Of a stretch of DNA of 64,000 bases, positions 285 to 48,500 are shown piece after piece. A model generated the notes under the pieces. It was not told the DNA's origin and ran no database searches. It worked only from the letters and a program-made list of their open reading frames with translations. This DNA is from Flaccisagitta enflata (Eukaryota), in the NCBI GenBank assembly GCA_965153355.1, contig OZ231126.1, positions 12,586,001 to 12,650,000 on the forward strand, in the 5' to 3' direction. The first letter of the stretch is position 1; every line of letters starts with the position of its first letter. The position numbers and the translations under genes are program-made.

Positions 285-378
<94 letters not shown>

Positions 379-405
379 GTGTATCTGTGGCTATATATAT
401 ATATA

Positions 406-8210: not shown

Positions 8211-8334
<124 letters not shown>

Positions 8335-18356: not shown

Positions 18357-18358
<2 letters not shown>

Positions 18359-20175: not shown

Positions 20176-20335
20176 CTCTCCTCCTCAGTTCTCAGTCTCA
20201 CATGGCCTTTTTTCCATATTTTTTTCCTTTTGTTCTTTTACTATTTTTGCGTAATATCCTTACCAAAACGATCCGTTCTATCCCGTTTCAGGTGCTGTCT
20301 TTCGATATGCCCTTCAAAATGTGTACGTGACGGTT

Positions 20336-21390
20336 ATGGCCTCTTTGCTGTCTTCTCTGCGACGGTCCTGTTTCGTTGCCTACGTTCTCACGCACGATTG
20401 TCGTGCGAGACGTCCCCTCGCCGCGGACAAATCGTATCGTAAAGGCGTCGCGTTGGCCTCCATTGTCTCCGCTGCTCTCCCGCCGATTGTCGTTAAGGCT
20501 AAGGAACTGGAAGCAACAGATAAGTCCGACGCTCCGTCACCGCCGTCGCCTCCATCACCCCCGTCACTGCCGTCACCCTCGTCGTCCTCTCTCGAAGACT
20601 CCAAGAGGCGGAAAAAGGAAGAGGCGAAGAGAAAGCGGCTCATCGACTTGTTGGACGCGAAAAACTCGAAGGAAGACCATCGTGGGGCACTTCGATTACT
20701 GCTAGAATTCACGGCCGACGAAACGCGGGACCCTAGAGTGAGTAATCCTTAGAAATTGGTAACATACAACACATTCTACATCAAGCACGATCACTATCAC
20801 GATCACTATTCACTTAATTCTGTAAGCGACTATCTTGTTACGGTCCTAGAATTAATTCTATAAATTTAGTTTAGTCAACTTAGCCTAGTAATAAGCGCCC
20901 CTCTTATTTTTGCCTCTCTTGTATGTTTGTGCCGTAAATTCATCGCTGAAAATGAATGGACATTGCAATGCATGGGTTTAAATGAAAACATCATCGTCAT
21001 GCTTCAAAATTGACTGTCGTTGAATGAAATTTTCATGTCCAAGATGAAGACTTATGACGATGCAATGAGCTCAAATTGCATGTACCATTTCAATTTTCCA
21101 CACACAGTTGCTTTGGCGTTACGCCCGTACATTGTACGAAGTCTCGGGTAACTCCTCAGCCTCGTCGACGACGCGTTTGAGCGGCGTGCCTCCGCTAATC
21201 GACGACTCCGAAGAGAAGCAGCTTTTGGAGAAAGCTTTAGTCTCTGCCGATCGATCCATCGAAGCTTCGGAGGAAACTCGCGACGAGGGCGAATTGGCCA
21301 AAGCGCATTTGTGGTACGCCATCGTACTCGAGGCGCTTGGAAGGTGGAAAAGCCTCAGGGAGAAAATAGCAGACTCGTTTGTTATCAAAG
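20336..21390 (+). CDS. RMDN1: Regulator of microtubule dynamics (RMDN1/FAM82-like), exons 1-2
   Basis: Exon 1 20336-20737 (donor gtgagt) and exon 2 21108-21390 (cacacag / gtgagt) join to DPRLLWRYAR...AHLWYAIVL...EKIADSFVIK, the RMDN TPR-like motifs. The Arg/Ser/Leu-rich N-terminus resembles a mitochondrial presequence. Paralogue assignment (RMDN1 vs 2/3) is by recall, not by search. Confidence 0.88.
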
Positions 21391-22782: not shown

Positions 22783-22814
<32 letters not shown>

Positions 22815-23203: not shown

Positions 23204-23272
<69 letters not shown>

Positions 23273-25515: not shown

Positions 25516-26327
25516 TAGTTAGGAAATTTTTAGTCCCCTGCACGCAACTTTACGCCCCGCTTTGTCCATCTGTCGGTTGGTTGGTCGATTGGTCAATTGG
25601 TCCCCATTTTATTTTTGTTTCATCAACTTTATTTTTTAAGTCATATAAGGAATTTCAGGGTAATTTAAGTCATTCTAAGTCATTCTAAGTTAAGCTGTAA
25701 GTCTTGCACGCAACTTTTAGGTGTTGCCCTTGTTTTAATTTGCAAGTTTTTTTGACAATTACTTGTTTTAAATAAAAAAAAAATTTTACAAAACTATTTT
25801 TAAAAAAAAATTAAAAGCGTAAATTTTTGAATTTTAAGAATTTTGGAACTAAAAATTTTTGAAGAAAAGATTTTTGAAGTGAAAAAAATAAAACAAAGAA
25901 AATTAAAGCAAAAAATTTAGGCGAAAAATTTGAGCTAAAAATTTTCAAAATTGAATAATTTTAAAAATTGAAATTTTTGAAACAAGAATTTGTAAATAAA
26001 GAATTTAAGCAAAAAAAAATTAAAAATGAAAATTTTAAGAATGAAAGTTTTTTAAAGTAAAAAATTTGCAGTAAAAATTTAATAAGTGAAAATTTGAAAA
26101 GTGAAAATTTAAAAAGTGAATATCTTTAAAGCAAAAATATTTTGAGAGAAAATTTAAATGAAAAAAAAATTTGAAGAAAAAAAATTTGATGGGGTCTAGG
26201 GGGATAGCCCGCAACTAAAAACATATGTAACCAATCATAAAGAAGCAGCACTGCAAGATTTATAAAGCAGAAAAAAATCATAATTAATTTACCTATCAAA
26301 ATCAAGATATAAAGAATTTTGATTCTA

Positions 26328-27538: not shown

Positions 27539-27881
27539 TATTTTTTTTTTCATATAGTGCATTTTCTTTCACTTTGGCCCACAGTGTATTTTGATCTCAG
27601 GAAACCCAATGTGCAGCGTCTACGAATCTCGTATCTACATAGACATGTAAGGACATGGAAGAACTGAATGAGAATAGGACAAACCGACAAACACAACAAG
27701 GTGTAAGCAACTAAAAATGATATAAGAACTTTGGACGAAAGGAGACGATTCAAGCAACTGTTTGCATTGTTATCTGCTAAATTAGAATAGAAGGCACTTT
27801 TTCTCATTCTTCGAGACGCGACGCGCGCCACTGTCTCCAGAAATCATAAAAGTTTTAAAAACATACACACACACACTCACT

Positions 27882-27920
<39 letters not shown>

Positions 27921-29503: not shown

Positions 29504-29596
<93 letters not shown>

Positions 29597-29609
29597 CACA
29601 CACACATAC

Positions 29610-29762
<153 letters not shown>

Positions 29763-29786
29763 AGGAGAAGGAGAAAACTCTACATA

Positions 29787-32349
29787 ACACATGCGCCACA
29801 TTTAGGCGGAAAATGTGGGAACATAGTTACCATAGTAAATATTACTCCAGTGGCATGAAATTTGAACTGGAGGTAGCTTTTTAGTTGAATTTTCATTTAG
29901 TGTTATGATTGAATCATAATTCAATTCATAAATGGGGTATTCCAGCCAAGATGTTAAAACTTCAATATCAAAATGTTGCTGATTTTTCCCGCTTTAAAAT
30001 CAATTAGAATAGATCATCTTTGAAAGACCCTGAGTCACAGATAGTGACCAAAATTGACTGACAATCATGCACGTAAGTATTATAAAGTAATTGGATCGCA
30101 TATTGCACAGTTTTTGGCCCCTAAGAAGCGCAATACTGGATAAAATCTAGACAAGGAATACTCAAAACTAGAAATTCAGTTTCTTTTAAATGCTTATGCA
30201 GGATTATTGAAAAGTCGAATTACGTAATTAATTTTGTAAATGTAGGGGAGAAATAAAGTTTTCCATTTTCAGTTTGCGGCAATTTTTGAAAGTTGTGCAG
30301 TTTTTAGGCTGGGATGATACATTTTTTGTCCGCGACGGAATACCATTCGAGGCGGGTGGGTGTCGTCGTTGTCGTCGTCGTCGTCGTTGTCGTCCACACT
30401 TTTAAAAATGGGCTAACTTTTGAACGCCTTGACCGATTTGCTTCATATTTGGAGGGAAGTTGTATTAGGGTAAGCCGCTTTGCAGCCTATGCGTATGTTA
30501 TGATCCGACCCACCCAACCGGCCCAACCAGCCTACCAGCCTAAAAGTGAAAAACGTACATAACTTCGGCATTTTTCAACCAATTTGGTTAAAATTTGGTA
30601 TGTAGTCCCTAAATGGAAGAACTCAACATATGTATTTGAATTGTAAAGATTTTAGCATGCTAACCGGCCAAACCGGCCTACCAACCAACCAGCCTACCAG
30701 CCTAAAAGTGAAAAACGTGCATAACTTCTGCATTTTTCAACCAATTTGGTTAAAACTTGGTATGTAGTCTCTAAATGGAAGGACTCAACATATGCATTTG
30801 ATTTGTAAAGATTTTAGCATGCTAACTGGCCAAACCGCTCCAGTACCACCCAACCAGCCTACCAGCCTAAAATAGAAAAATGAAAAACGTGCATAACTTT
30901 GGCATTTTTCAACCAATTTGGTTAAAACTTGGTATGTAGTTTCTAATGGAAGGACTCAACATATGTATTTGATTTGTAAAGATTTTAGCATGCTAAACGG
31001 CCAAACCGGCCTACCACCCAACTAGCCTACTTCAGCCTAAAAAGTGAAAACGTGTATAACTTTGGCATTTTTCACCGATTTGGTTAAAATTTGGTATGTA
31101 GTCCCTAAATGGTAGAACTCAACATATGTATTTGAATTGTAAAGATTTTATGATGCTAACCGGCCAAACCGGCCTACTACCCAACCAGCCTAAAAGTGAG
31201 AAACGTGCATAACTTTGGCATTTTTCAACCGATTTGGTTAGGACTTGGTATGTAGTCTTTAAATGGAAGGACTCAACATATGTATTTGATTTGTAAAGAT
31301 TATAGCATGCTAACTCACCAAACCGGCCTAATGCCGAACTTGACAACCGGCCATTTGACAATGCCATTTGACAACGCTGCTTGACAACGCCGCTTGACAA
31401 CGCCGCTGACAACGCCGTTTGACAACGCCCTTTGACAATGCCGATGGATAATGCCGTCTGACAACGCCGCTTGACAACGCCGCTTGACAACGCTGCTGAC
31501 AACGTGCTGGACAACGCCGCGATTAACGCCGTTGACAACGCGTTGGACAACGCGTTGGACAACGCGTGACAACGCCGTTTGACAACGCCGTTTGACAACG
31601 CCGCTTGACAACGCCGCATGACAACGCCGATTGACAACGCCGCATGACAACGCCGTTTGACAACGCCGCTTGACAACGCCGCTTGACAACGCCGTTTGAC
31701 AACGCCGCTTGACAACGCCGCTTGTGACACGCCACACGACAACGCTCGCTGACAACGCTGTTTTTGACAACGCCGCTTTTGACAACGCCGCTGGACAACG
31801 CCGCTGTTGACAACGCCGCTTGATTAACGCCGCTTTTGATACCCGTGCTTGGATAACGCGTTTGACAACGCTTCGCTTGGATAACGCTCGCTTGGATAAA
31901 CGCTGTTTGACAACGCCATTTGATAACGCCCGCTTGACAACGCCAGATGACAACGCTGCAATGACAACGCCGCGTGACAACGCCGCATGACAACGCTGCA
32001 TGACAACGCCGCGTATGACAACGCCGTATGACAACGCGTATGACAACGCGCTGCTTGGACAACGCCGTTGCCAACAGTCGGACCCATACTCTTTCAAGAT
32101 TTTTGATACTCAGCAGCTAAGAAGAGCTATTTTTCTTCAAACAAGGCCAACCAGAAGTCTCTGTTACAAATGTTAATTTTGATACATATGAATTTTTGAA
32201 TCTTTTTTTATTTTTTCGCATTTTTGCAAAATTCGATATTTTTCATTGATCCTATTTTTTGGGCCCTATGCAACATGAGAGATGAGTCAAGATGTTACAC
32301 AAGTTGACCCTAACTTTTATGACGCTAGCTTTTGCATTTTACTCTGCTT

Positions 32350-32428
<79 letters not shown>

Positions 32429-32525
32429 GAAAGGGAAAGAGAAAGAGAAAGACAGAGAGAGACACAATCTCCTCTCCCACACATATATTCACACACACAT
32501 AGAGACACAGAGAGAGAGAGAGAGA

Positions 32526-32602
<77 letters not shown>

Positions 32603-32959
32603 GAAGACAAAGGAAGACCAAGAAAGAGACACAGAGAAACAGATTGAATGACAGGCAGGCAGTCAACCAGACATCATGAGATTCACATAGGAGAACATGC
32701 AATGAAAAAAGAGACTCCCATTTACAACTTTTTTCCAGTCGGCGAGAGCCGCCTTTATTGGTATACAAAACACCACTTCTTACATTCAGAGGACATCTTT
32801 ATGTCATTATCTAATATCTATGCCTATGGTGACCTAAATATAGTAAATACACTTTCTCCATTCAGTTGTGGAGGTTTTTTTTTTTTTGCTTTTAATGACA
32901 ATAGCAAGATTCAGTCCTCACTAAGTAGATCATTTTCCGCCTAAATGTGGCGCATGTGT
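29787..32959. mobile_element. 3.2-kb TIR element with TA TSD
   Basis: Perfect 29-bp TIR acacatgcgccacatttaggcggaaaatg. Removing the element restores aaaactc..caTAtgtgtgaaagcatagg, seen uninterrupted at about 63810-63838. Confidence 0.92.
30322..32095 (+). mobile_element. HINE/DINE-1-like element with about 160-bp tandem repeats and a GACAACGC array
   Basis: T-run + gtccgcgacggaat, (gtc)n tract, five about 160-bp units (30540-31330), then the short-unit array (31340-32070); 5' part homologous to 35356-36675. Confidence 0.7.
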
Positions 32960-33034
32960 TATGTGTGAAAGCATAGGCCATCAACCCCTTCGGGGCTACT
33001 GCTCTGCTTCCCTTCAACTAAGCCTAAACTACTA

Positions 33035-33611
33035 TAGTGGTTCGTGGAATACCCTGAAACTGGAGGAAGGTATTTATGTCTTACCTCATTTGGCAAACTT
33101 GGATATCTGAAATATGTTGTTCACTTGGATGCTTTTTTGTTCCTTCTGAAAGCTCCGCTGCTATGGAAACCAAAATTTATAACCACTAAAATATCAATAT
33201 TTTGAGAAATATTGTCAGGGAACACTGCTCCTCGCCTCTGCATAACTTCTCCCACAAGCTTGTAGCATCAATTGCTCGTTTGGCTGGTGCTAGGGGGCAT
33301 CACACCCAGCAAATATAAATGATGCTCCCTAGCAACGGCTAAACGAGCAATATTCTTACAGGACATACTATGGGAAAGTTGTAGCAAATTTAATTTTGAG
33401 CAATGTTTCCTGATAATATTTGTCAAAATATTGATAATCTAATTGTTATAAATGTTCAAAAAAAAAATTTTGGTTTCCATAGCAACCGAAAAACTCAGGG
33501 ACAAAAGCATTAAGTGAACAACTTATATTCCAAATATGAAGTTTGTTAAATGAAATTAAGACACTTTAATACCTTCCTCCAGTTTAGGCTGTTATTCCAC
33601 GAACCTCACTG
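33035..33611. mobile_element. Palindromic TA-flanked MITE
   Basis: ta-tagtggttcgtggaat...aaactggaggaagg / ccttcctccagttt...attccacgaacctcactg-ta; interrupts the 3' end of a HINE-like element. Confidence 0.85.
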
Positions 33612-34046
33612 TAGGCAAGGCATGGGTACCGCTGACCATCTAATGCTTTTGCGACTATTGTAACATGTCCAATGTTTGACCAGTGGGCCCTCCCTCCCAT
33701 ATAAGGTTGAAATATATTTTAAAACACACACTCTAATGGACCCACCACCAACAGAATTTCGCCTATAACAGACACAAATTCATAGCCTCTTCAAGTTAAT
33801 TTCTTTTATTATCTTTATTGGCAATAACAGAAGTCTGCCTATAACAGAAAAAAACTGTTGGTCCCCTGAAATCCGTTAGAGCGGGGTTCAACTGTACTTC
33901 TTAAAATAATGAGTTCACTGAAAAAGACGCTCCCTAAAATAACTGATTTAGCTCTTGGAAACAAACAGAGATTTTAGAAAGCCTTCATTGCCTATTTGGT
34001 ATTTCTATCTTTTTTTTCTTTTTAAATAGGCATTAGTTTAAGTTAA

Positions 34047-34637
34047 CCATAAGTGCAATAAAAATGGCCGATTTTTGAAAGGTCTGTAAAGGATCAAAAA
34101 TTCATCTGAACATAGCCAAATTCATGACACCTTGAAAGCCCTTCAAAAGATCTTTCATTTGAAACTTTTGTGGGACCACTAACACGATGAATATGCAAAT
34201 GAGAGTAAGATTAGCAAAACCACTTAATTTTGAAACTGCCCATGGTATTTTTACAAAGTTCCATAAAAAATCACAGAAGTCGTTGCCCGATATTGATAAA
34301 AATTGAATGGATATTGGGGCAAATACAGGTCAACTAGCACCTAAAATTTCATCGAAATCGATAAAGATCTTCTATCATTTTTACTCATCTAAAATATTTC
34401 AGAAAATCTGAGTGACAAATTTGGCCCTTTTTTCATGAGGTGGCAATATAGTTGTTAGCCCTAAATCTGTCATATTTTCTAAAAGAATTGAGAAAAAATT
34501 TGCTGCATGGACTCAAATGAAAGATAATTTTGATATGTTTCTGCAATGCATGAATTTTAGGATAGTCCCAAGAATCTTTTGACCAAAACCTGTGCTCAAA
34601 GCTGTTGAAAAATCGGCCATTTTTATTGCACTTATGG
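34047..34637. mobile_element. piggyBac-type MITE
   Basis: TTAA on both sides; perfect TIR ccataagtgcaataaaaatggccgattttt. Confidence 0.9.
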
Positions 34638-34966
34638 TTAAAAAAACATTTTTTCCTTTTTCTGGGTCCCTCTATTGTGCTGCCAATGCTGAAAAACACA
34701 ATAATAAATGAGGGAAAAAAGAGCTTCCTATGAGGCTAAGCCCATTCTGGTAAAAAAGCATAATTCAGTGTCATTTTTTAGAAAATCCATTTTTGGTTAC
34801 AACCCGAGTCTCGAGCATGATGGACCAACAAACCAATGGACCAATGGACCAACAGACCAACAGACCAGAGAATGAATAGAGCCAATTCATTTTGAAATAG
34901 GAGGAAATAGAATTTCTTTTTCTTCCATATCAGGTTTCCTCAATAACGTTCATCAGAAAGAAAAAA

Positions 34967-35057
<91 letters not shown>

Positions 35058-35355
35058 AGCCGATCGAGATAGAGAAGGGAGATCAGGCGGAAATCCCTCA
35101 CTGAATTAGACGCCGTCGCAGCTACTGGACAAAGAAGATAAAGCAGGCCAACGATTTCAAAATATATCTTTTTTGTCTAGCAAGTGCTATGCATGCTGCT
35201 CATAGAATTTTGATGACGACATGGTTGCGATAACAGGATGCGCCGCATGGTGCTTTATCTTGTAGTATCTGGGCTGACTAATATATGATTGTTTTTGTGT
35301 GTGTTTTTGTGTGTTTGTTTTTGTTTGTTATTTTGTGTTTGTTATTGTTTGTGTT

Positions 35356-36675
35356 TTTTGTCCGCGACGGAATATCATTCCGACGCGGACTATAATTTAA
35401 GGCGGGTGGGTGTCGTCGTCGTCGTCGTCGTCGTTGTCGTCGTGTTCATTTTGAAAAATGGATAACTTTTTTATGCTTTGACCGATTTGGTTCATATTTG
35501 GTGGGAAGTTGTACTAGGGTAAGGCGCTTTACATCCTATCCGATTTTTGTGATCCGACCAACCCAACCGGCCCAACCAGCCTACCGGCCTAAAAGTGAAA
35601 AACGTGCATAACTTTGGCATTTTTCAACCAATTTAGCTGAAATTTGGTATGGAGTCTCTAAATGGAAGGCCTCAACATACATGTATATGATTTATAAGCA
35701 TTTGAGCATGCTAACCGGCCAAAACTGACCTACCACTCAACCAGCCAACCAGCCTAAAAGTGAAAAACTTGCATAACTTGTCATTTTTTCAACTGATTTG
35801 GTAAAAACTTGGTATGGAGTCTCTAAATGGAAGAACTCAACATGCACACTATTTATCCTGTCAAACCAGCCTACCACCCAACCAGCCTACCAGCCTAAAA
35901 GTGAAAAATGTGTATAACTTTGGCATTTTTCAACCAATTTGCTGAAATTCTGTATGGAGTCTCTAATGGAAGGCCTCAACATACGTATATGATTTATATG
36001 CATTTGAGCATGCTAACCGGCTAAACCGACCTACCACCCAACCAGCCTACCTACCAAAAAGTGAAAACTTGCATAATTTTGTCATTTTTCAACCAATTTG
36101 GTTGAAATTTGATGTGGAGTCTCTAAATGGAAGAACTCAACACATGCACACTATTTATCCTGTCAAACCAGCTCACACTCAACCAGCCTACGAGCCTAAA
36201 AGTGAAAAAATGTGCATATCTGGCGTTTCAACCAATTTGCTGAAATTTGGTATGAGGCTCTAAATGGAAGGACTCAGCACATGTATGTGATTTATTTATG
36301 CTTGAGCATGTTAGAACCAGCCAAACCCCACTCCCCACCTACCTCCCAACCAGCTTATCTGCCTAAAAGTTAAAAACTTGAATAAATTGGACATTTTTCA
36401 ACCAATTTGGTTGAAACTTGGTATGGAGTCTCTAAATGAAAGAACTCAACATATGCACACTATTTATCCAAACCAGTTTACCACCCAACCAATTCCTACT
36501 AGTGCTTCAAAAGTAGTGAAAAACGTGCATAACTTGCCATTTTTCAACGGATTTGCATGAAACTTTGCCGGAGGCTCCTAATGTAAAGAATTCCTTGCAG
36601 TTTTAGCGAATCCTACGGGTTAGGTAATTTTGGTCATAGCGATCTTATGGAATTGGTGATCTATAACCCCTTCCG
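35356..36675 (+). mobile_element. HINE/DINE-1-like element with alternating tandem repeats
   Basis: 5' hairpin gtccgcgacggaat-atc-attccgacgcggac after a T-run, a (gtc)n tract, then six units of about 140-165 bp. Confidence 0.72.
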
Positions 36676-37720
36676 TTGTGTGTGTTTGTTTTGTGTGTGT
36701 TTGTTTTGTGTGTGTTTGTTTTGTGTGTGTTTGTTTTGTGTGTGTTTGTTTTGTGTGTGTTTGTTTTGTGTGTGTTTGTTTTGTGTGTGTTTGTTTTGTG
36801 TGTGTTTGTTTAGTGTGTTTGTTTAGTGTGTTTGTTTTTGTGTGTTTGCTTTTGTGTTTGTTTGTTTTTGGGTTTGTTTTTGTGTGTTTGGTTTTGTCTG
36901 TTTTTGTGTTTGTTTTTGTGTGCGTTTGTTTTTGTGTGCGTTTGTTTTTGTGCATGTTGGTTTTTGTGGGTGTTTGTTTTTGTTTATTGTTTTTGTGTGT
37001 TATTGTGTTGTTTTTGTGTGTTTGTTTGTGTTTGTTATTGTGTGTGTTTGTTATTGTGTGTGTTTGTTATTGTGCGTTTGTTATTGTGTGTGTTTGTTAT
37101 TGTGTGTGTTTGTTATTGTGTGTGTTTGTTATTGTGTGTGTTTGTTATTGTGTGTGTTTGTTATTGTGTGTGTTTGTTTTAGTGTGTGTATTTTGTGTGT
37201 TTGTTTTTGTGTGTTTGCTTGTTTTTGTGTGTGTCTGCTTGTTAATGTGTGTGTCTGCTTGTTGTTGTGTTTGTTTGCTTGTAACTGTGTGTTTGATATT
37301 GTGTGTTTGATATTGTGTGTTTGATATTGTGTGTGTTTGATATTGTGTGTGATTGTTATTTTTTGTGATTGTTATTTTTTGTGATTGTTATTGTGTGTGA
37401 TTATTGTGTGTTTGTTATTGTGTGTGATTGTTATTGTGCTTGAGTTTTTATTTGAATTTGTTATTGTGTGTGATTGTAATTATGTGTGTTGGTTTTTATC
37501 TTGTTTTTGTGTGTTTTTGTGTGTTTTTGTTTGTTTGTTTTTGTGTGTTTTTGTTTGTTTGTTTTTGTGTGTGCTTGTTTCTGTGTGTGCTTGTTTTTGT
37601 GTGTGCTTGTTTTTGTGTGTGCTTGTTTTTGTATGCATTTGTGTTTGTGCGTATTTGTTTGTTTTTGTGTGTATTTGTGTGTATGTTTCTGTGGTGTTTG
37701 TGTTTGTGTGTGTTTTTATT
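36676..37720. repeat. (tgtgtgtttgttt)-type low-complexity satellite (also 21600-21940, 35290-35355)
   Basis: 15-bp unit gtgtgtgtttgtttt and variants. Confidence 0.9.
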
Positions 37721-37878
37721 GAGTGTCTATGGGCGGTTGTACGCCCCCACCCACCCGTCCGCAACGTTGTTACTCTGGATTACTTGTTTGCCTCCTTATC
37801 AACAAACCATTTTGACTCACCATTCATGTCATTTTGTAACGGGTCTTCAATTCAACTTTCACTCTCTCTCTCCACCAG

Positions 37879-38768
37879 ATCATTATCTGCGGTCTCTGCA
37901 GTCCCAGCCTCAGAGCGCGGTGGTTCTCCATTGTCTTGGTTCCTGGTGCTTTACCATCGCCAGCATCAATTGGTTCGAACGGAGATTAGCCCAGGTCAGG
38001 CAACGTGATTGTAATACTAATGGTAGTTAAGGCAACTGGAACGTGATGTAGACAACCTGACTTTAACAGTAATTTAGGAAACTTGACAGCGATTTGTGCA
38101 ACTTGACAGTAATTAAGGCAACTCGACTTTGTCAGTATAGTAATTTATGCTATCGGCGGGATTAAGGAAATCAAGCTGATAGGCAGGGTCCGCTGTAAAA
38201 CCGTTCATTTGTCTGGTTTCATAATACGTAATAATCTCAGCTTGTTATCCTTTGAATAGTAAATTGGTTCTAAGATCAATTTGGGACAGTCTACTGATTG
38301 TACAGTCATGCTTGGATAAATTGCAACTGGATTCTCAAGCCTACTACTCAGTCAAAAATCAGAAAAACCTAGCAAAATCATAGATGTAATTGAAGAGATT
38401 GAGACCAAGTAGTTTGTTGATGCAATTAGATGGAAAGCTGTTTTAAAGAGAAGGACTAATTGTAAGTTCTCCTATTATTTTATTCTGCGTGATTTCCTTT
38501 CCCTCTTCACCCTTCACAGATCTTATTTCTCGATCCTCCATCATCCACTTACGAGGAAGCACTTGGTTACTTCCGCGCCGCGGAGGAAGTCAGTCCCAAC
38601 TTCTACTCTCAAAACTTGCTCTTCATCGCCAAATGTTACGCGCAGCTGAAAAACGACGCCAAAGCGAATGAATATTTAGAAAAGGTCGTCAACTTCGCGC
38701 CGATTCGCTCCGAAGAAGACGCCGACGCCGTTAAGGAAGCCAGAAGGATGCTTTTGACGGACGATTGA
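37879..38768 (+). CDS. RMDN1: RMDN1-like, exons 3-4
   Basis: Exon 3 37879-37994 (phase 1 matches exon 2; HCLGSWCFTIASINWFERRLAQ). Exon 4 38520-38768 (ILFLDPPSSTYEEALGYFRAAEEVSPNFYSQNLLFIAKCY...stop). Spliced CDS is 1050 nt (349 aa), all introns GT-AG. Confidence 0.9.
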
Positions 38769-39003
38769 AGTCGAAGACGAGCTTTTAAACATTTGATCTC
38801 GAGGCCTTGAGGACTGAGCTGTCTCTCTTGAATCATCAGATCGGACAATCATCTGCCGTTGATGGAGAGAACCAAAAACAAACTGCTCCATAAAAACGAA
38901 CACCAAAAGACAAAACGGTCACAAAAGATATATATATCCCCGGAAGATGTACTTAACTTAAGCTCCCCCGGAATACCTTCGATTCCCATTCAAAAGTACT
39001 ATC

Positions 39004-42000
39004 ATGCCTTCCTTTCCCTCGGAGCCCCCTTTCATCACGGCTTTGCGCGGCGTTTCCGCCGACGTGGCTTCTTCCGTCACTTTCACCCAACGCCTCGTCC
39101 ACTTCCTTCGATTGCCGCCCATTTTTGATCGTTTGGCGTCTGTCGCCAATCAAGATGGCGTTGAGAATGATCATAGAACGACCGCGGTTGAGTTTTTGCG
39201 TCAGGACAATGACCCGGAAAGAGGAGGAGGAGGAGCTGGTGGTGGAGTTGAGGAAAAGCGCGGAACGCGCCTGTTGGCGACTTTTCTCACTTTTGTCTTC
39301 GAAGATGAGATGCAGCGAGTCAGCTTAAAGAATATCCAGGATCTCGTCGGATTTTGCTTGTCGGTGGTTGACGCCAGCATGTGCGGACTGGGCTACTCGC
39401 AGCGTCGTCGTCGTTGTTGTCGATGATGTGGTAGAGTCGATGACGTCGGCTTGCTTCCGTCTGCTTTATCTCATGCAACTCGATGTCGATGATGATGGTC
39501 GTGAGCAGGGAGGAGAAATGGAGCACCGATACCGGATGTTTTGCGCGTCCTTTAAGGCAGCGGAACAGCTGGTCAAGCTTCATACGGCTCAAGTAGGTTA
39601 TGTTTACCTCAATTTTGACTACTTAAACCTCTCCTTCTTCCTTTCATTCCTGCTTTTTCTTTTCCTCCTTTCATTCCTGCTTTTTCCCTCCCTTTCTTTT
39701 TGTTTTCCTTCTTTTGTCTTTTCCTTCTTTTTCTTTTCTGCCTTTCTATTCCTACATTCTTTTCCTTCTTTCTTTCCTTCTCTCTTTCCTTCTCTCTTTC
39801 CTTCTCTCCTTCCTTCTTTCTTGCTTTCAGTTTTTCCTTTCTCTATTCCTTTCTTTTTTAGTCGCGTGCACGCGACTCTACAACCCGCTTTGTCGGTTGG
39901 TCGGTCGGTCAGTCACACTTTACTTTTTTATGATTTTATTTCATTGACCTCATCACCTCTGCTCAAAATGATCTGGTGACCTCAACATGGCCCCTGCCCA
40001 CCCGCACGCGATTTCGGTAGCCGTGTATCCGGCCTTGTTCTTTCTTTTCCTGCCCTCCTCTCCTCCTTCTTTCTCTTTTCCTTCCCTCATCCTTTCTTTC
40101 TTTCCTTCTTCCCTTCCTTCTTCCCCTCCCTCTTTCCTTCCCTCTTTCCTTCCCTCATTCGTTCCTTTTCTCTTTCTTCCCTTAATCCCTTCCTCCTTCA
40201 TTTTTTGTTCCATACCGCTAAATAGTAATCTATACCACTAAATAGTAATCCTCTTTCTTTTCTTCAGTCCTTTTTTCGGGACCCACCATCTTCCTTTGCT
40301 CTTCTTTATGCCTTTTCCCGTGTCAAATGATTTTTCCCAGGCTGACACTGCATTTTCTTATCTCATCTCTTCAGTTGTGTTATTTGTTGATGACTAGCGA
40401 GGATTTCCTTCGTATTTTGATCTCCGACTCGTCCATCGTCTCCGTCGCCGCCATAAACCTGTTCTCCATTTGTGTCGCCAATGAATCATTTCAGGTTAGA
40501 GTACACAACCAAACGGATTGTTTAGTACCGCACATTGAAAGACGTTAATGGAGCCTTGTGTTGGTTACATGGCCTGCCATTTATCTTGATCTTGTTAAGC
40601 CTTAGGAAAACTCAGAACTATTTTTATAAACATTATTTGAAAATGTCTAGTTTAAGGAAAACTATAAAGTTTTATATATATTTAAATTTAGATATGTTTA
40701 CCCTTCGGAAAACTTGAAATGACCATCTGTTTCCCCTTATGCATATCTTGATTCTGCTTTTGATTGTTTTTTTAGCTGTCGTCTCTCTCTGAAACTACGT
40801 TGTCCGCTTTCTTGGATGAATTGTCCTTCAAAGTGTCTTCTTCCGATGACGCGATGGAGGCTGAGGCTGCTATTCAAGCTTTGTTGCGGGTGACGATGAA
40901 AGGAGAAGAATTCGTCGAGCTTATACATCGCAAATACGAGTAAGGGTTCTTCAAAGGCCATCTCTCGTTCCTTACACTTTCTCTTTTTTTCGCTTCTTCC
41001 TCTCGAATTATTCTTTTAGCTCTTTCTTATTTCATATATACGCTGTCAAGTTCTTTTTTTGATATATTTCATCCATTTCACTCATTGTAATTTTCATGAC
41101 CAAATTCTCTCATTTTGTTACAATTCTCACGCATATAATCGAACTTCTTCACTTCCCGTGTACATTCTCATATCCAGGGGTCTCGGGACTCTCGTGACTC
41201 GTTGGATTAACCACGGATTCGACCCGTCCATCCGTCGTCTTCTCGCTCTCCTCCATCCATCCGCACCCTCCTCCTCCTCTTCGGTGACACAATCCCGCTC
41301 CGCCGCCGCCGCCGCCGCCGTCGTCATTCAAAAGACGTGGCGCGCTCATCAAACTCGTCGACGCGTGGAAAAACTCGCTCGCGTTGTCAAGCGCGTCCAA
41401 CGCTCTTTCCGCCGACGCCGCGCCGAGGAGGAAAAAAGACGCCACGACGCCGATTTGGCGAAACAACGCGCCGCCGACGCCGAAACGGAACGCCGGAAGC
41501 AAATGCGTCAATCGCGCGAAAGGACGCTACAATCGGTGGAGGCGCTTCCGGGCCGAGATGTCGACGAGTTTCTGCAGCGTCGAGAAACCGAAGCGGCGAC
41601 GAGGATTCAGGCTTTGTGGAAGGGATGGAAAACGAGGCGAGTGTTGGATGGCGGAAGTGGCAAAGAAGGAGGAGGAGGAGGCAGAGAAGCGATGAAACGC
41701 GACGCGGCGGCGAGAGTGTTGCAAAGCCACTGGAGAAGCTGGATGAGGGATTCTCGAGCGAAGCGGAAAGCTGCAAAGACGTTGTTAGCATCGGCGATGG
41801 GATCAAGAGGAGGAGGAGAAGAAGAGGCAGATGGCGGTGATGTTGAAGCGGCGGAATCCCGCGCGAGCCGACTGGCGGAAGTGGAGAAGAGGAAAGAACG
41901 ACGATTGAAAGAGATTCGAGAAAGATGCCGTCGAGGGGAAGAGCCGTTGACGAGGGAGGAGATTTGCGATTTGGATGATCGCGTCCGACGGATGGTGGCC

Positions 42001-42741
42001 GAGAAGGAGGAAAGAAAAGATCGAATCGCGAGAAGTTTGATCAGATGCGAGGTGAGTCCGAGTTTGATATTGGGCGTAGTTCTACTGACGAAAACAAACG
42101 CGTTCCTCCCTCCTCCTTGTTATTCGCGATATCAGCGTGAACTCATATGCATGAATTTCAACTGTTCCACGAGTGAGCGAGCTAAGTGAGTGAGCGAGCT
42201 AAGTGAGTGAGCGAGCTAAGTGAGTGAGCGAGTGAGTGAGCTTAGCGAGGAGCGAGCTAGCCAGTGAATGGAGCGAGCCAGCTGAAGCGGAGCGCTGTAT
42301 CACCTATGAAAGGTTTTCTTCTAATGAATCTCAATATCTCTTCCTTATTCCCCCCCCCCTCATTCTCAACAGGCGGCATTAGCGGGATTAGACATGGATT
42401 TGGACTTGATCTTGTATCCTTCATCCTTGGAAGAGTTGGTCGACGGCGTTGAATCGACCTTTCAACCGCATCTCCGCCAATTAGCCACGCCTTCGCCTTC
42501 CGCCGCCATTCGAAATCTCGCCGCCAAAGAACATTCCAAAGCCTTGAAACTGGCTCGTGAACCGTGGACCAAACTGCTCCAAGATGATGAGGAAGATGAA
42601 GAAGAGGGGGAAGAGGATGAGGATGACGACGATTTCTACTCTCAAAGGAAACTGGATGTGCTGACTGAGAAGAAATTGAGGGAGAGTCCTCATTGGAAGC
42701 ATTTGGCGTGGACATTGGATCATAATGAAGCCACTTTGTGA
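39004..42741 (+). CDS. IQCB1: IQ calmodulin-binding motif protein 1 (NPHP5), 5 exons, one +1 frame break in exon 1
   Basis: Exons 39004-39592, 40375-40494, 40776-40939, 41178-42051, 42373-42741 with GT-AG introns and matching phases. Motifs SEDFLRIL, FLDELSFKV, YEGLGTLV, three IQ motifs (IQKTWRAHQTRR, IQALWKGWKTRR, LQSHWRSW), MRQSRE and C-terminal EHSKALKLAREPWTKL are colinear with IQCB1 as I recall it. Confidence 0.88.
39855..40039 (+). mobile_element. Short HINE-like element (family A) in IQCB1 intron 1
   Basis: T-run, palindrome agtcgcgtgcacgcgact, (ggtc)n, 3' cacgcga..ggtagccgtgtatccggccttgtt. Related copies or fragments at about 8700-8830, 12088, 15111, 15456-15591, 17170-17235 (reverse), 19210-19505, 25528-25733, 28262-28452, 47985-48030 (reverse). 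Confidence 0.8.
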
Positions 42742-43012
42742 TCTGCATCTTGTGGGTATAAATTCCCTAAATTTTGTTGAAGCCATTACTAGAATGATTA
42801 GATAGTCAAGCACTCATGTGATATATATATTATTGATTTCTTACTCTGCAATGCCACGGAGTAAGTTGCCTTATCTGCCCATCACTCAAACTCTTAGTCA
42901 AGGATTCACCTCTCACCGCATCATTTTATTACTCATTTCCAAATCCAGCTTTCAGGTTTCAAATAAAAAATATTTCTCTAGCCCACAAAAACCCTTAAAA
43001 ATCGTAAAAAAA

Positions 43013-43718
43013 ATGTTGAAGGTTGAGGTTTGCGCGTTTTCCGGGTTAAAGATCTACCCTGGACACGGAAAGCGTGTCACAAGAGCGGACGGCAAGACTC
43101 AGATCTTCCTCAACTCTAAATGCGAGAGGAATCATGCGCTCAAACGGGAGAGGAATCATGCGCTCAAACGTAATCCCAGAAAGGTAAGGGGGGGGGGGTG
43201 GTTAGGGCGAAGTTTGGGGATCAAATATATGTTGAAAGGGGTATGGTGAAGGGGGGGGGGAAGAGAAAATGCATCAGATAGTGACTGACAAGTATTCTTT
43301 CATACAGTTAAAACATGATCAACCCTGGATGTTTGATTAATTTTCATGGTTAACGCTGTTTATAAAGTTGTTGAGGAGTAGTTGGGGCAAATTTGGGAGA
43401 TAGAATGTATATAGAATGGGGTGTGAGGGGGGGGAATGATAGAGGATTTCACGAGACTGACAAAAAATCGCTCACACAATACAAATATCTATGGTTGATC
43501 ACGCTCAAGTACTGATTACCGCGCTGTTGATATAATATTTGCTATCAGATCAACTGGACGGTGTTGTACCGCCGAAAGCACCGCAAAGGCATGGTCGAAG
43601 AGGCTGCCAAGAAGAGGACGAGGAGAACGCAGAAGTTCATGAGAGCCGTCACTGGCGCCACCCTGGCTGACATTATGGCCAAGAGAAATCAAAAACCCGA
43701 AGTCAGACAGGCTCAAAG
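43013..43718 (+). CDS. RPL24: 60S ribosomal protein L24 (eL24), exons 1-2; terminal exon not found in window
   Basis: Exon 1 43013-43183 ([21 protein letters not shown]...FLNSKCE...KRNPRK, donor gtaagg). Exon 2 43549-43718 ([14 protein letters not shown]...[36 protein letters not shown], donor gtaaga). Confidence 0.95.
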
Positions 43719-44370
43719 GTAAGAAACAGTCACTGGCGCCACCCTGGCTGACATAATGGCCAAGAGAAATCAAAAACCCGAAGGAAGACAGGCTCAAAGG
43801 TAAGAGACAGTCACTGGCGCCACCCTGGCTGACATTATGGCCAAGAGAAATCAAAAACCCGAAGTCAGACAGGCTCAAAGGTAAGAGACATTCACTGGCG
43901 CCCCCTTGGCTGACATTATGGCCAAGAGAAATCAAAAACCCGAAGTCAGACAGGCGCAAAGGTAAGAGACAGCCACTGGCGCCACCCTGGCTGACATTAT
44001 GGCCAAGAGAAATCAAAAACCCGAAGTCAGACAGGCTCAAAGGTAAGAGACAGTCACTGGCGCCACCTTGGCTGACATTATGGCCAAGAGAAATCAAAAA
44101 CCCAAAGTCAGACAGGCTCAAAGGTAAGAGACAGTCACTTGCGCCACCTTGGCTGACATTATGGCCAAGAGAAATCAAAAACCCGAAGTCAGACAGGCTC
44201 AAAGGTAAGAGACAATCACTGGCGCCACCTTGGCTGACATTATGGCCAAGAGAAATCAAAAACCCGAAGTCAGACAGGCTCAAAGGTAAGAGACAGTCAC
44301 TGGCGCCACCTTTGCTGACATTATGGCCAAGTGAAATCAAAAACCCGAAGTCAGACAGGCTCAAAGGTAA
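43648..44370 (+). repeat. 81-bp tandem array derived from the RPL24 exon 2 3' end plus splice donor (9 copies including the genic one)
   Basis: caaag|gtaa donors at 43719, 43800, 43881, 43962, 44043, 44124, 44205, 44286, 44367 (exact 81-bp period); copies differ by a few substitutions. Confidence 0.97.
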
Positions 44371-45588: not shown

Positions 45589-48500
45589 CGGTCTTACGCA
45601 CGTGTCCTGAAAAGTCGATAAAATATTGGCAGAGATACACTATTCTTAAAATTGGTACCAATGTGTCCGGAATAACTCCCTCTAGCACACTGAACACTTT
45701 TTTGGCCCAAAAAATGTGTGGCTGCATATTACAAAACTCAAATGGCTGTTTTATTATTTTTGCCTTTGACCCTGAAAACCACTGTAAAAAGTATTCAACA
45801 TCTCAAATTCAGTATTTGCTGTGTAGCTTCGCATTCCACCCATCACAGAAAATGACAACCTGGAAAAAATTCTAGGCACCTATAATGGCCCAAAATTGAT
45901 TTTTCGACACTACCAAACACAGAAAAAAAGGGCTTTCCCATGCTTAAACTAGTCCGATTGTCATAAAATTTGAACTGAAGCTTCTCAACTTCCACTGCTA
46001 GTACCCTTTAAAATTTTATGACAATCGGAGCAAGTTAAGATGCCTAAATTGGACCTCAAAGTCCAAAAAATGAAATTTCAAAATCGAAAAAAATTGACTT
46101 TTAGGCTGTAACAATGTCAATGTATGGCAAAAATGAATAAACCATGACCCAAAAACTGATCGCCAGGTTGATGGTGAACTCAAACACAAAGATCAGCTCT
46201 TGTTTTGCATTCCTGGCGCCCCTCCCAAAAAAATGAACAAAGTGTTGTCACTCAAAAACTGGCCTTTTTGGCTATTTTTTGAGGTTTTGACCCTAAAATC
46301 ACATCATAAAGGGTCCAAATAACTTGAAATTGACATTGAAATTGAACATTTACATGTAACTGCATCCTATTCATCATTCTCAGAAAAAAGGTTACAATTT
46401 TAAAAATTTTGGGTACCTATAATGGCCCAAAATTGATTTTTTGACACTTCAGCCAAACACAGGGAAAAGTGATTCTTTCATGCTTAAACTAGAATCATTG
46501 TCATACTTGAACTAGCTTCACAATCTTCATTTCAAAGTACATAAAATTTCATGACAAGCAGTTAAGATGCCTAAACACTCAAAGTCCAAAATGATGCCTG
46601 AAATTAAAAATAATTGACATTAGTTAAATAATGACATGCAGGCAAAATAAACATGATTTTAAAATGACTGAGTTGATGGTGAATTAAAACACAACACGCT
46701 TGTTTGTGCTTTTGGTGCCTGTGGCCGAACAGTGTTGTCAATTGTAACTGTCTTTTGCTATTTTGTTTTGACCCCAAAATCACATCATAAAGGGTCCAAA
46801 TAACTTGAAATTGACATTGAAATTGAACATTTACATGTAACTGCATCCTATTCATCATTCTGAGAAAAAAAAATGACAATTTTGAATATTTTAGGTACCT
46901 ATAATGGCCCAAAATTGATTTTTTGACACTACCAAACACAGAAAAAAAAGGGCTTTCCCATGGTTAAACTAGTCCAATTGTCATTAAATTTGAACTGTAG
47001 CTTCTCAACTTCCACTGCTAGTCCCCCATGAAATTTATGACAATCGGAGCATGTTAAGACGCCTATATTGGAGGTCAAAGTCCAAAAATGAAATTTGAAA
47101 ATAAAAAATAATCGACTTAGGTTGTAACAATGTCAATGTATGGTGAAAATGACTAAACCATGACCACTAAAACTGATCTTGAGGTTTATGGTGAAATAAA
47201 AAAAAATATCAGCCCTTGTTTTGCATTCCTGCCCCCCCCCCAAAAAAAAACAACAACAAGCTGTTGTCACTCAAAAACTGATATTTTTGGATATTTTTTG
47301 AGGTTTTGACACTGAAAACCACACCAAAAAGGGTCCAAATAACTTTAATTTGAGCATTTACATCTAACTGCATCTTATTCATCATTCTCAGAAAAGAAAA
47401 CGACAATTTTGAAAATTTTAGGTACCTATAATGGCCCAAAATTGTTTTTTTGACACTACCAAACTCAGAAAAAAAGGGCTTTCCCATGCTTAAACTAGTC
47501 AGATTGTTAAAAGATTTGAGATATATCTTCTAAACCGCCACTGCTGATACCACAGAAAGTTTTATATGACAATCAGACCTATAATTGTAGTAGATGATGT
47601 AATTCATAGTATTTAACAGAGACACTTAAAAAAGACATCATTTACCGGAGCCAGAGGTGCAATGGGGACGCGTAGTCAAAGCCCTCATTAGACAAATATA
47701 TCAATAGTCAGATTTACTCAACTTTTTGTTTGAAAGTACTTTTTAGTGGAATCATTCATATTGGTTGTGAAATATCAAATATGTGTGGACACGCCACAGC
47801 TTTAGTAAGTCAGTCAGTCCTTCAGTCAGCCAGTCTCATAGTGGTATATCATTTTCATCGTTTAAGAGCTTTTCAAGCATCAATACCTCTTTTTTAATGC
47901 CAAAGTGGAGGTCTACTCTATTTCACCAGTATGGTTACCATTTATGAATCCTGGTGAATCATTCAGCCATTTTCAACTTCAAAGGCTGGATACACGGCTT
48001 CAGGGCTACCCGTCGCATACCGGTGGGCAGGGGCCGTGATGCAAAAGGCATCAAAATTTTCAGAGGAGTCATTCTTTTTTCTGTGAATGATGAACAGGAT
48101 GTAGTTACATGATAATGTCGAATTTGAAAGTATTTGGACTCTTTTTGGTGTGGTTTTCAGGGTCAAAACCATAGAAAATAGCCTAAAATCCCAGTTTTCG
48201 TGTGACAACAACTTGTTTGTTTGTTTTTTTTTTTGGGCAGGAATGCAAAACAAGGGCTGATATTTTTTTTAGTTTACCATCAACCTCAAGATCAGTTTTT
48301 GGGTCATGGTTTAGTCATTTTCGCCATACATTGACATTGTTACAACCTAAAAGTCGATTATTTTTGATTTTCAAATTTCATTTTTAGACTTTGACCTCCA
48401 ACATAGGCGTCTATAACCCACTTTTCGGTCGGTCCGTCGGTCCGTCGGTCGGTCGGTCGGTCGGTCGGTCGGTCGGTCCGTCGCTGTAAGGTTTTGTGCT

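What the first reader, a model, noticed from the sequence alone, without database searches (positions are those of the whole stretch)
38520..43183. Candidate eukaryotic operon RMDN1-IQCB1-RPL24
Seen: three functionally unrelated genes lie on one strand with 235 bp (38769-39003) and 271 bp (42742-43012) between stop and ATG. The spacers carry no transposons, in a region where one intron reaches 16.5 kb. Each ATG has an acceptor-like site just upstream: tttcag at 20291; branch-like tacttaac at about 38950 with AG at 38996, 7 nt before the IQCB1 ATG; tttcag at 42955 and tctctag at 42981. Only variant poly(A) hexamers closely follow the stops (cataaa 38889, tataaa 42757). Established: this layout typifies polycistronic units resolved by spliced-leader trans-splicing in nematodes, tunicates, flatworms and chaetognaths. 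Inference: these genes are co-transcribed.
Basis: partly seen in the sequence, partly recalled or inferred. Interest (0 to 1): 0.8.

Follow-up and report, generated by a model that had tools for sequence, protein, structure and literature searches.

The report
Arrow-worm leader-spliced gene cluster
Three unrelated genes sit head to tail only about 0.2 kb apart in what is almost certainly an arrow-worm (chaetognath) genome, an animal group already known to splice a common leader onto its mRNAs and to run genes as operons, so this is a likely but unproven further example of a known arrangement.

Summary
The layout is real. An RMDN1-like gene ends at 38768, an IQCB1-like gene runs 39004-42741, and RPL24 starts at 43013. 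All lie on the + strand, with 235- and 271-nt spacers free of within-window repeats.

New evidence concerns RPL24. Metatranscriptome relatives, identical to the window copy except for a 24-bp duplication, carry translated 5' ends. These begin with the published chaetognath spliced leaders SL2.0 (LSSFNLFK, 2 proteins) or SL1 (7 proteins). In the closest one, the sequence after the leader is collinear with the window from 42949, directly after AG 42947-48.

Chaetognath operons are in print (2008; 2025: 18% of genes, rule <250 bp). This cluster meets that operational rule.

Co-transcription itself could not be tested. A (TA)5 TATA-like tract in each spacer, and the expected very high expression of RPL24, keep independent or internal promoters open.

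Verdict: a new member of a known kind. Operon about 0.5, separate promoters about 0.35.

The parts
20286..20291 (+). Candidate trans-splice acceptor (tttcag) 44 nt before the RMDN1-like ATG; unverified
   Evidence: It is the last AG before the ATG and has 75% pyrimidines upstream. The 44-nt leader would hold a 7-codon uORF.
20336..20737 (+). RMDN1-like exon 1 (ATG 20336, donor GTGAGT at 20738)
   Evidence: No Pfam hit of its own.
21108..21390 (+). RMDN1-like exon 2; ends in phase 1
   Evidence: (RMD1-3 profile 65-115, E 0.0041).
38520..38768 (+). RMDN1-like last exon with stop TGA 38766-68
   Evidence: RMD1-3 profile 155-219, E 2.2e-6, 27.5 bits against a cut-off of 26.7.
38769..39003 (+). Spacer 1 (235 nt). 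It holds CATAAA at 38889-94, a palindromic (TA)5 tract at 38927-38938, tacttaac at 38949-56 and AG at 38995-96
38995..38996 (+). Candidate trans-splice acceptor AG for the IQCB1-like gene, 7 nt before its ATG; unverified, in AAG context
   Evidence: passes only the loose acceptor test.
39004..39592 (+). IQCB1-like exon 1. The start Met is conserved in relatives. The reading frame slips by one base between about 39381 and 39405
40375..40494 (+). IQCB1-like exon 2
40776..40939 (+). IQCB1-like exon 3
41178..42051 (+). IQCB1-like exon 4 with IQ motifs
42373..42741 (+). IQCB1-like last exon with stop TGA 42739-41
   Evidence: 6 relatives.
42742..42948 (+). Spacer 2 up to the leader acceptor (207 nt). 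It holds TATAAA at 42757-62 and a (TA)5 tract at 42820-42831
42947..42948 (+). Spliced-leader acceptor AG of RPL24, placed by orthology
   Evidence: The leader peptide LSSFNLFK is followed by 5' UTR that is collinear with the window from 42949.
42949..43012 (+). RPL24 mature 5' UTR (64 nt).
43013..43183 (+). RPL24 exon 1. It includes a perfect 24-bp tandem duplication at 43124-43170
43549..43718 (+). RPL24 exon 2
43648..44370 (+). 81-bp x 8.9 tandem array that copies the end of exon 2 with its donor site

Best explanation
The window comes from a chaetognath-like (arrow-worm) genome. An RMDN1-like gene, an IQCB1-like gene and RPL24 lie head to tail on one strand. RPL24 pre-mRNA receives the chaetognath spliced leader at AG 42947-48, which leaves a 64-nt 5' UTR. 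The cluster most likely behaves as a chaetognath-type operon. RNA polymerase II would start upstream of RMDN1 and read through all three genes. Each upstream mRNA would be cut and polyadenylated inside the short spacer. Each downstream mRNA would get its cap and 5' end by leader trans-splicing at the AG just before its ATG (38996 for IQCB1, 42948 for RPL24).

Shown: the layout, the gene identities, the chaetognath leader on orthologous RPL24 mRNAs, and the position of that junction.

Inferred: leader splicing of IQCB1 and RMDN1, the poly(A) sites, and above all co-transcription. This reading includes the case where an internal promoter adds to RPL24 output.
For: 1. Leaders on RPL24 relatives. 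Ten RPL24 relatives carry 11 or more translated residues before the start Met. Two begin with LSSFNLFK and seven begin with MG-EAK(H/N)SFICLIK. The last 24 nt of published SL2.0 translate to LSSFNLFK (sequence from PMC2481426 Table 3). Published SL1 gives SFICLIK.
2. Leader signature. P0005 and P0021 share the leader and then diverge completely.
3. Junction position. After the leader, 19 of P0005's 21 UTR residues can be read from window 42949-43012 if two one-base frame slips are allowed. None of the 8 leader residues matches upstream in register (my reading). The 24-nt leader part is absent from the window at up to 3 mismatches. The junction falls directly after an AG.
4. Coding identity. 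The window's RPL24 exons equal P0005 apart from the 8-residue duplication.
5. Published background. An RPS14-PCNA operon has 3 nt between poly(A) site and acceptor (PMC2481426, passages). In P. gotoi 10,197 of 21,072 genes are trans-spliced and 18% lie in operons. Operons there are called as same-strand genes under 250 bp apart with at least one leader-bearing gene, and the longest includes ribosomal protein genes (PMC12460157, passages).
6. Distances here. Stop to acceptor is 228 and 207 nt.
7. Genome context. The surrounding genome is sparse and repeat-rich. No Pfam-recognisable gene lies in 44.4-64 kb, about 13.6 kb separates the upstream zinc-finger ORF from RMDN1, and a repeat-filled 17-kb stretch sits inside RMDN1. 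Yet both spacers are repeat-free.
Against: - No RNA from this organism could be laid. There is therefore no leader-bearing read, poly(A) site or spacer-spanning read from the window itself.
- Leader splicing alone does not show an operon. About half of chaetognath genes are trans-spliced, but only 18% are operonic.
- Both spacers hold a TATA-like (TA)5 tract, 58-69 and 117-128 nt upstream of the acceptors. These are the only exact copies outside two long (TA)n microsatellites.
- Distances of 207-228 nt sit near the upper limit of the 250-bp rule and far from the 3 nt of the published Spadella operon.
- From established knowledge, RPL24 is expected to be expressed far more strongly than a ciliary IQCB1 or RMDN1. 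That is awkward for the third cistron behind an 18-kb first gene.
- The IQCB1 acceptor is a weak AAG, and such sites are common by chance.
- The IQCB1 exon 1 frame slip, the missing RMDN1 middle exon and the missing RPL24 last exon mean none of the three gene models is clean.
Confidence: 0.5

Rival explanations
1. The three genes are separate transcription units that merely lie close together. Each downstream gene has its own core promoter in the spacer, with the (TA)5 tract as its TATA box. It makes a short outron of about 30-90 nt, which is replaced by the spliced leader.
For: - The (TA)5 tracts at 38927-38938 and 42820-42831 fit the TATA consensus. They are the only exact copies outside microsatellites.
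- Most trans-spliced chaetognath genes are not operonic.
- From established knowledge, RPL24 needs far higher output than its neighbours.
- The variant poly(A) hexamers CATAAA (38889) and TATAAA (42757) lie upstream of the (TA)5 tracts. That leaves room for a 3' end followed by a promoter.
Against: - Two consecutive tiny, repeat-free same-strand spacers in a genome where other distances are 10 kb or more are hard to explain without a constraint that ties the genes together.
- The published chaetognath excess of same-strand neighbours under 250 bp is read as operons.
- The TA tracts could be simple slippage products in AT-rich DNA (spacer GC 0.34-0.42).
Confidence: 0.35
2. Hybrid operon, a variant of the best explanation and counted within its 0.5. 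A polycistronic transcript exists, but RPL24 draws most of its mRNA from an internal promoter in spacer 2 or in the end of IQCB1.
For: - It reconciles the tight spacing with the expected expression gap.
- A TATA-like tract lies in spacer 2.
- Hybrid operons with internal promoters are known in C. elegans (recalled, not from a call).
Against: No data bear on it here. It needs both mechanisms at once.
Confidence: 0.2
3. The RPL24 piece is not the working gene. It would be a truncated or rearranged copy, or an assembly artefact, placed next to IQCB1, so the apparent third cistron is spurious.
For: - The last RPL24 exon is absent from the 20 kb downstream.
- A perfect 24-bp in-frame duplication appears in none of the 34 relatives that show the site.
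- An 81-bp x 8.9 array copies the end of exon 2 with its donor.
Against: - Exons 1 and 2 are otherwise identical in protein to expressed relatives.
- The 5' UTR and acceptor are collinear with an expressed orthologue.
- Stretches of many kb within genes occur elsewhere in the window, so a last exon more than 20 kb away is possible.
Confidence: 0.1

Closest known systems
Chaetognath operons resolved by spliced-leader trans-splicing (Spadella cephaloptera RPS14-PCNA, Marletaz et al. 2008, PMC2481426; Paraspadella gotoi genome, 2025, PMC12460157)
   Same: The same leader family: the SL2.0 and SL1 peptides are on orthologous RPL24 mRNAs. The genes are unrelated, lie on one strand and are under 250 bp apart. 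A ribosomal protein gene is a member. No leader is dedicated to downstream genes.
   Different: The distances of 207-228 nt from stop to acceptor are much longer than the 3 nt in Spadella. The first cistron spans 18 kb in a repeat-rich genome. Co-transcription and leader use on two of the three genes are not shown here.
Caenorhabditis elegans SL2-type operons
   Same: Possible intercistronic gaps of about 80-170 nt, if the variant poly(A) hexamers are used. A downstream gene gets a leader just before its ATG.
   Different: Nematodes use a specialised SL2 and a U-rich Ur element. Chaetognaths have no operon-specific leader (PMC12460157 and PMC2481426 passages). No Ur-like element was identified here, only a (TA)5 tract.
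Ciona and Oikopleura operons with little or no intercistronic DNA
   Same: Polycistronic units of unrelated genes resolved by a single leader type.
   Different: Those have almost no gap between the poly(A) site and the acceptor. Here up to 207-228 nt lie between stop codon and acceptor, and the poly(A) sites are unknown.
Calanoid copepod spliced leader (CopepodSL, PMC4664967)
   Same: A marine zooplankton group with leader trans-splicing. It was considered because the relatives come from marine metatranscriptomes.
   Different: The 46-nt CopepodSL (Table 1) does not give the observed leader peptides. Operons have not been reported in copepods (PMC7986045 passage). Rejected.

Membership tests
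Chaetognath SL-resolved operon | The organism adds a chaetognath spliced leader to its mRNAs | tested here: met
   Of 10 RPL24 relatives with 11 or more residues of 5' extension, 9 start with the translation of published SL2.0 (2) or SL1 (7) (leaders from PMC2481426 Table 3). The window RPL24 equals these relatives in protein, and its 5' UTR is collinear with P0005. This rests on orthology, not on reads of this organism.
Chaetognath SL-resolved operon | Two or more genes on one strand separated by less than 250 bp (operational rule of PMC12460157) | tested here: met
   Stop to acceptor is 228 and 207 nt. Stop to ATG is 235 and 271 nt. The rule counts gene models with UTRs, so the true gaps are shorter still.
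Chaetognath SL-resolved operon | The downstream gene's mRNA starts with the leader at an acceptor just before its ATG | tested here: inconclusive
   Met for RPL24 by orthology (AG 42947-48). Unknown for IQCB1. Its relatives P0017, P0018 and P0041 start at Met, and the leader would bring an in-frame stop, so proteins cannot show it.
Chaetognath SL-resolved operon | One polycistronic primary transcript with no independent start in the spacers | not testable with these tools
Chaetognath SL-resolved operon | Poly(A) site of the upstream gene close to the downstream acceptor | not tested
   Only the variant hexamers CATAAA 38889 and TATAAA 42757 are present. No canonical signal lies within 30 nt upstream of either acceptor. 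Reads are needed.
eL24 / Ribosomal_L24e (PF01246) | Match to the family profile above its gathering score | tested here: met
   Exon 1 scores E 8e-18, 64.9 bits against a cut-off of 27. Exon 2 is identical to relatives. The last exon was not found in the window.
IQCB1 / NPHP5 | IQ motifs in the middle of a protein of about 600 aa with a conserved N-terminal region and C-terminus | tested here: met
   IQ scores E 3.5e-11. Five exons are collinear with the 649-aa relative P0017 at 47-58% identity. The Atlas names the nearest clusters to P0017 IQCB1 (0.97, 22 of 30 hits; a lead, not an alignment). Exon 1 has a one-base frame slip.
RMDN1 (RMD1-3, PF21033) | Match to the family profile along the protein | tested here: inconclusive
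   The last exon scores 27.5 bits against a cut-off of 26.7 (profile 155-219). Exon 2 scores 16.8 bits (profile 65-115). Profile 116-154 was not found, and the exon phases do not join. No relatives were found.

The most novel reading that the evidence does not exclude
The two spacers of about 0.2 kb, each with a (TA)5 tract between a variant poly(A) hexamer and the acceptor, might define a long-spacer class of chaetognath operon. The TA tract would be an intercistronic processing signal, the counterpart of the nematode Ur element. A very highly expressed ribosomal protein gene would then be made as the third cistron of a primary transcript longer than 23 kb in a repeat-bloated genome. That would require very large post-transcriptional differences between cistrons.
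Probability: 0.12. Interest if true: 0.55.

Novelty: new member of a known kind. Interest (0 to 1): 0.35.

Why it matters
Operons and leader trans-splicing in arrow worms have been in print since 2008 and were mapped genome-wide in one compact species in 2025. The kind is therefore known. If confirmed, this locus would show that such units persist in a much more repeat-rich chaetognath genome. It would also show that they can have spacers of about 200 nt rather than a few nt, and that they can couple a ribosomal protein gene to a ciliary gene and a microtubule-regulator gene. The practical gain is for annotation. The leader junction, not the nearest acceptor-like motif, defines the 5' end of RPL24. 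Translated 5' ends in metatranscriptome protein catalogues can reveal both the clade and the trans-splice site when no reads are available.

Tried and rejected
- Read mapping. No read evidence of any kind was obtained.
- Run search. It listed five marine metatranscriptome runs holding 5-12% of the sampled words, plus one raw poly(A) RNA run of the organism. None was laid, so none counts as evidence.
- No whole genome is held for the window. A genome-wide distribution of intergenic distances was therefore impossible.
- Metagenome scan with an RPL24 alignment. It gave 49 loci, the best at 66% identity and none chaetognath-like. The transcripts behind P0003-P0005 were not in that collection, so their DNA could not be read.
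- RMDN1 exon 2 against the protein collection: 499 candidates, none significant.
- Search for the missing RMDN1 exon. A regex found nothing. Pfam on 71 of the 73 listed + strand ORFs of 36 aa or more in 21.4-38.5 kb gave no RMD1-3 hit. The two left out, 37385-38005 and 37428-38027, are low-complexity; the first had been scanned without a hit.
- IQCB1 last exon against 1.84 billion representatives, followed by a cluster look-up. It found 6 relatives, mostly last-exon ORFs from genomic contigs. No contig length linked them to an RPL24 protein, so this gives no evidence for a dicistronic contig.
- Copepod origin was considered because of the marine plankton signal. It was rejected because CopepodSL does not give the observed leader peptides.
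- Rfam on the whole window: 0 matches, so no SL RNA gene here.
- The bacterial-type promoter and terminator scan is irrelevant to a eukaryote.
- Supplements of PMC12460157. Three PDFs searched for RPL24, IQCB1, RMDN1 and the leader string gave nothing. The xlsx tables that may list operons were too large to read.
- Earlier findings of this scan: none for this genome or for look-alike stretches. Word hits were from other genomes and were not used.
- A 22-nt GT..AG 'mini-intron' at 39381-39402 would mend the IQCB1 frame, but it is too short to credit in an animal.


Full report
**1. What is in the sequence**

The + strand carries three genes head to tail.

- The last exon of an RMDN1-like gene runs 38520-38768 and ends in TGA. 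It matches Pfam RMD1-3 just above the gathering score (27.5 bits against 26.7, E 2.2e-6). An upstream exon at 21108-21390 matches an earlier part of the same profile (E 0.0041).
- An IQ-motif gene starts at ATG 39004 and ends at TGA 42739-41. Its five exons are 39004-39592, 40375-40494, 40776-40939, 41178-42051 and 42373-42741. They are collinear with two unnamed relatives of 649 and 549 aa (47-58% and 41-54% identity per exon).
- The IQ motif scores E 3.5e-11. The ESM Atlas places the 649-aa relative among IQCB1 clusters (0.97; 22 of 30 hits).
- RPL24 starts at ATG 43013. Exon 1 runs to 43183 and exon 2 is 43549-43718. Ribosomal_L24e scores E 8e-18.

**2. Is it more than chance?**

The acceptor-like motifs alone are not.

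- On the + strand, a YAG preceded by at least 70% pyrimidines occurs 2.6 times per kb. A random 70-nt interval holds one with probability 0.15.
- With the looser criteria that the IQCB1 site needs, the probability is 0.37.

What is unusual is the spacing.

- In the rest of the window, recognisable genes are far apart. A C2H2 zinc-finger ORF ends at 6677, which is 13.6 kb before RMDN1. No Pfam match at E 0.001 or better, beyond a low-complexity PT repeat, lies in 44.4-64 kb.
- RMDN1 itself spans 18 kb.
- Repeats fill the introns. IQCB1 intron 1 has 39 non-self BLASTN hits in the window, while both spacers have none.

**3. Which organism, and is there a spliced leader?**

No genome is held for the window. 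The answer came from proteins.

- A search with RPL24 exon 1 found 15 relatives among 27 candidates, and cluster look-ups added more. They come from marine metatranscriptome catalogues and carry no organism names.
- The nearest relatives equal the window's exons 1 and 2 residue for residue, except for an 8-residue duplication present only in the window.
- Twenty-eight relatives cover the start codon. Thirteen of them have residues before the start Met, that is, translated 5' UTR.
- Ten of those have 11 or more such residues. Two begin LSSFNLFK (P0005, P0021). Seven begin MG-EAK(H/N)SFICLIK. One (P0013, LGFDINSFK) is unclassified.
- P0005 and P0021 share the first eight residues and are then unrelated up to the start codon. 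That is the signature of a leader joined to different 5' UTRs.

I compared these peptides with published leaders.

- The calanoid CopepodSL (PMC4664967, Table 1, read as passages) does not fit.
- The chaetognath leaders do (Marletaz et al. 2008, PMC2481426, Table 3, read as passages).
- The last 24 nt of SL2.0 translate to exactly LSSFNLFK.
- The last 21 nt of SL1 translate to SFICLIK. The full EAK(H/N)SFICLIK corresponds to SL1 with one extra base in its A run (my reading).
- The leading MG is probably a cDNA adapter remnant. That is recalled knowledge, not tested here.

The relatives are therefore chaetognaths, and the window is from a chaetognath or something very close to one.

**4. Where the leader joins**

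- After the leader, P0005 reads [21 protein letters not shown] and then the start Met.
- tblastn places this on window 42946-43011 in one frame and on 42965-43186 in another.
- Reading the three-frame translation, 19 of these 21 residues are encoded by 42949-43012 if two one-base frame slips are allowed. Such slips are expected between UTRs of sister species.
- None of the eight leader residues matches in register upstream. The 24-nt leader part is absent from the whole window at up to 3 mismatches.
- Collinearity starts at 42949, directly after the AG at 42947-48 (tccAG|ctttcagg).

**5. Does that make an operon?**

Chaetognath operons are established.

- The 2008 paper mapped an RPS14-PCNA pair with 3 nt between poly(A) site and acceptor (passages).
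- The 2025 P. gotoi genome paper (PMC12460157, passages) reports 10,197 of 21,072 genes trans-spliced and 18% of genes in operons. It finds no operon-specific leader. It calls an operon when same-strand genes are under 250 bp apart and at least one has a leader. Its longest operon includes ribosomal protein genes.
- Here the distance from stop codon to acceptor is 228 nt (RMDN1 to IQCB1, if 38996 is used) and 207 nt (IQCB1 to RPL24). The cluster therefore meets that operational rule.

Several points argue the other way, and I cannot remove them.

- (a) Leader splicing is much commoner than operon membership.
- (b) Each spacer contains GATATATATAT (38927-38938 and 42820-42831). With up to one mismatch the motif has 78 matches, nearly all inside two long (TA)n microsatellites at 390-409 and 8249-8332. 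The only exact copies elsewhere are these two, against 0.46 expected per window in shuffles. They fit a TATA box and lie 58-69 and 117-128 nt before the acceptors. Each downstream gene could therefore have its own promoter and a short outron.
- (c) The variant poly(A) hexamers (CATAAA 38889, TATAAA 42757) lie upstream of these tracts. No canonical signal lies within 30 nt of either acceptor.
- (d) From general knowledge, RPL24 should be far more abundant than IQCB1 or RMDN1 mRNA. That is awkward for a third cistron behind an 18-kb gene, unless an internal promoter helps.
- (e) The IQCB1 acceptor is a weak AAG.

**6. The decisive test could not be run**

- The run search offered a raw poly(A) RNA run of the organism and marine metatranscriptome contigs.
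- The metagenome scan did not contain the chaetognath transcripts. Their DNA, and any dicistronic contig, could therefore not be read.
- Proteins cannot show a leader on IQCB1. With the window's 7-nt UTR, the leader brings an in-frame stop, and the relatives start at Met.

**7. State of the gene models**

None of the three is clean.

- IQCB1 exon 1 changes frame by one base between about 39381 and 39405, and relatives match both sides.
- RMDN1 exon 2 ends in phase 1 and the last exon starts in phase 0. Profile positions 116-154 are missing. An exon of about 40 codons must therefore lie in the 17 kb between them, or the gene is broken. It was not found.
- RPL24 has three oddities. The last exon is not in the 20 kb that follow. 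A perfect 24-bp in-frame duplication is seen in none of the 34 relatives that show the site, a 35th not matching the test pattern. An 81-bp x 8.9 array copies the end of exon 2 with its donor.
- These may be assembly errors, alleles of a very polymorphic species, or real defects. Reads would tell.

**8. Upstream end**

- The last AG before the RMDN1 ATG (20336) is the tttcag ending at 20291. The 44-nt leader it would leave holds a 7-codon uORF.
- The TATAAAA and the repeated TAGATAC motifs at 20050-20175 look like a promoter. They are in fact one arm of a 126-nt inverted repeat, whose partner lies at 16603-16728 (84% complementary). They therefore probably belong to a mobile element.
- The promoter of the putative operon is thus not located.

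**9. Verdict**

The organism trans-splices and belongs to an operon-bearing phylum.
- The cluster is a plausible chaetognath operon by the published operational rule, with the RPL24 acceptor corrected to 42948.
- I put co-transcription at about 0.5, including a hybrid form. I put fully separate promoters at about 0.35 and a spurious RPL24 copy at about 0.1.
- It is a new member of a known kind, of moderate interest.

Noticed in passing
window 43124-43170: A perfect 24-bp tandem duplication in RPL24 exon 1 adds eight residues (ERNHALKR twice). It is present in none of the 34 relatives that show the site; a 35th did not match the test pattern. It could be an allele, a recent mutation or an assembly artefact.
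   Followed up: partly
window 43648-44370: An 81-bp unit is repeated 8.9 times at 95% identity. It consists of the last 71 nt of RPL24 exon 2 plus its GTAAGA donor and a few intron bases. Every copy keeps a donor site, but reading through would meet an in-frame TAA.
   Followed up: partly
window 43719-64000: The last RPL24 exon (EQAVRAAKEKK... in relatives) is not found anywhere in the window by tblastn at E 10. The intron is either longer than 20 kb or the locus is incomplete.
   Followed up: partly
window 39381-39405: The IQCB1-like exon 1 changes reading frame by one base inside a cgt/gtt-rich stretch, and relatives match on both sides. A GT..AG segment of 22 nt (39381-39402) would restore the frame but is too short for an animal intron.
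   Followed up: partly
window 21391-38519: The RMDN1-like exons on either side do not join in frame, and Pfam profile positions 116-154 are missing. A small exon should lie in this 17-kb repeat-rich stretch but was not found.
   Followed up: partly
window 38927-38938 and 42820-42831: A (TA)5 tract (GATATATATAT) occurs in each of the two spacers. Outside two long (TA)n microsatellites there is no other exact copy in the window. It could be a TATA box, a processing element or slippage; this is unresolved.
   Followed up: partly
window 16603-16728 and 20050-20175; also 17925-18050 and 18357-18482: Two pairs of 126-nt inverted repeats (84% and 83% complementary) indicate MITE or DNA-transposon ends. 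The outer pair ends 116 nt before the candidate RMDN1 acceptor and carries the TATAAAA and the TAGATAC repeats.
   Followed up: partly
window 39847-40198, 28259-28594, 19458-19510: A repeat family is shared between IQCB1 intron 1, the large RMDN1 intron and the region upstream of RMDN1 (73-81% identity). It is flanked by CT-rich low-complexity DNA.
   Followed up: no
window 4290-6677 (+) and 1-390 (-): There is a 796-codon open frame full of C2H2 zinc fingers (zf-H2C2_2, E 2.9e-48). An Atrophin-1-like fragment lies on the other strand at the window edge.
   Followed up: no
window 45800-47500: Several copies of a roughly 0.5-kb repeat (ggtacctataatggcccaaaattgatttt...) lie in tandem-like order downstream of RPL24.
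   Followed up: no
protein P0013 (RPL24 relative): Its translated 5' end, LGFDINSFK, ends like the chaetognath leaders (..FK) but matches none of the forms in Table 3 of PMC2481426. It may be a further leader variant.
   Followed up: no
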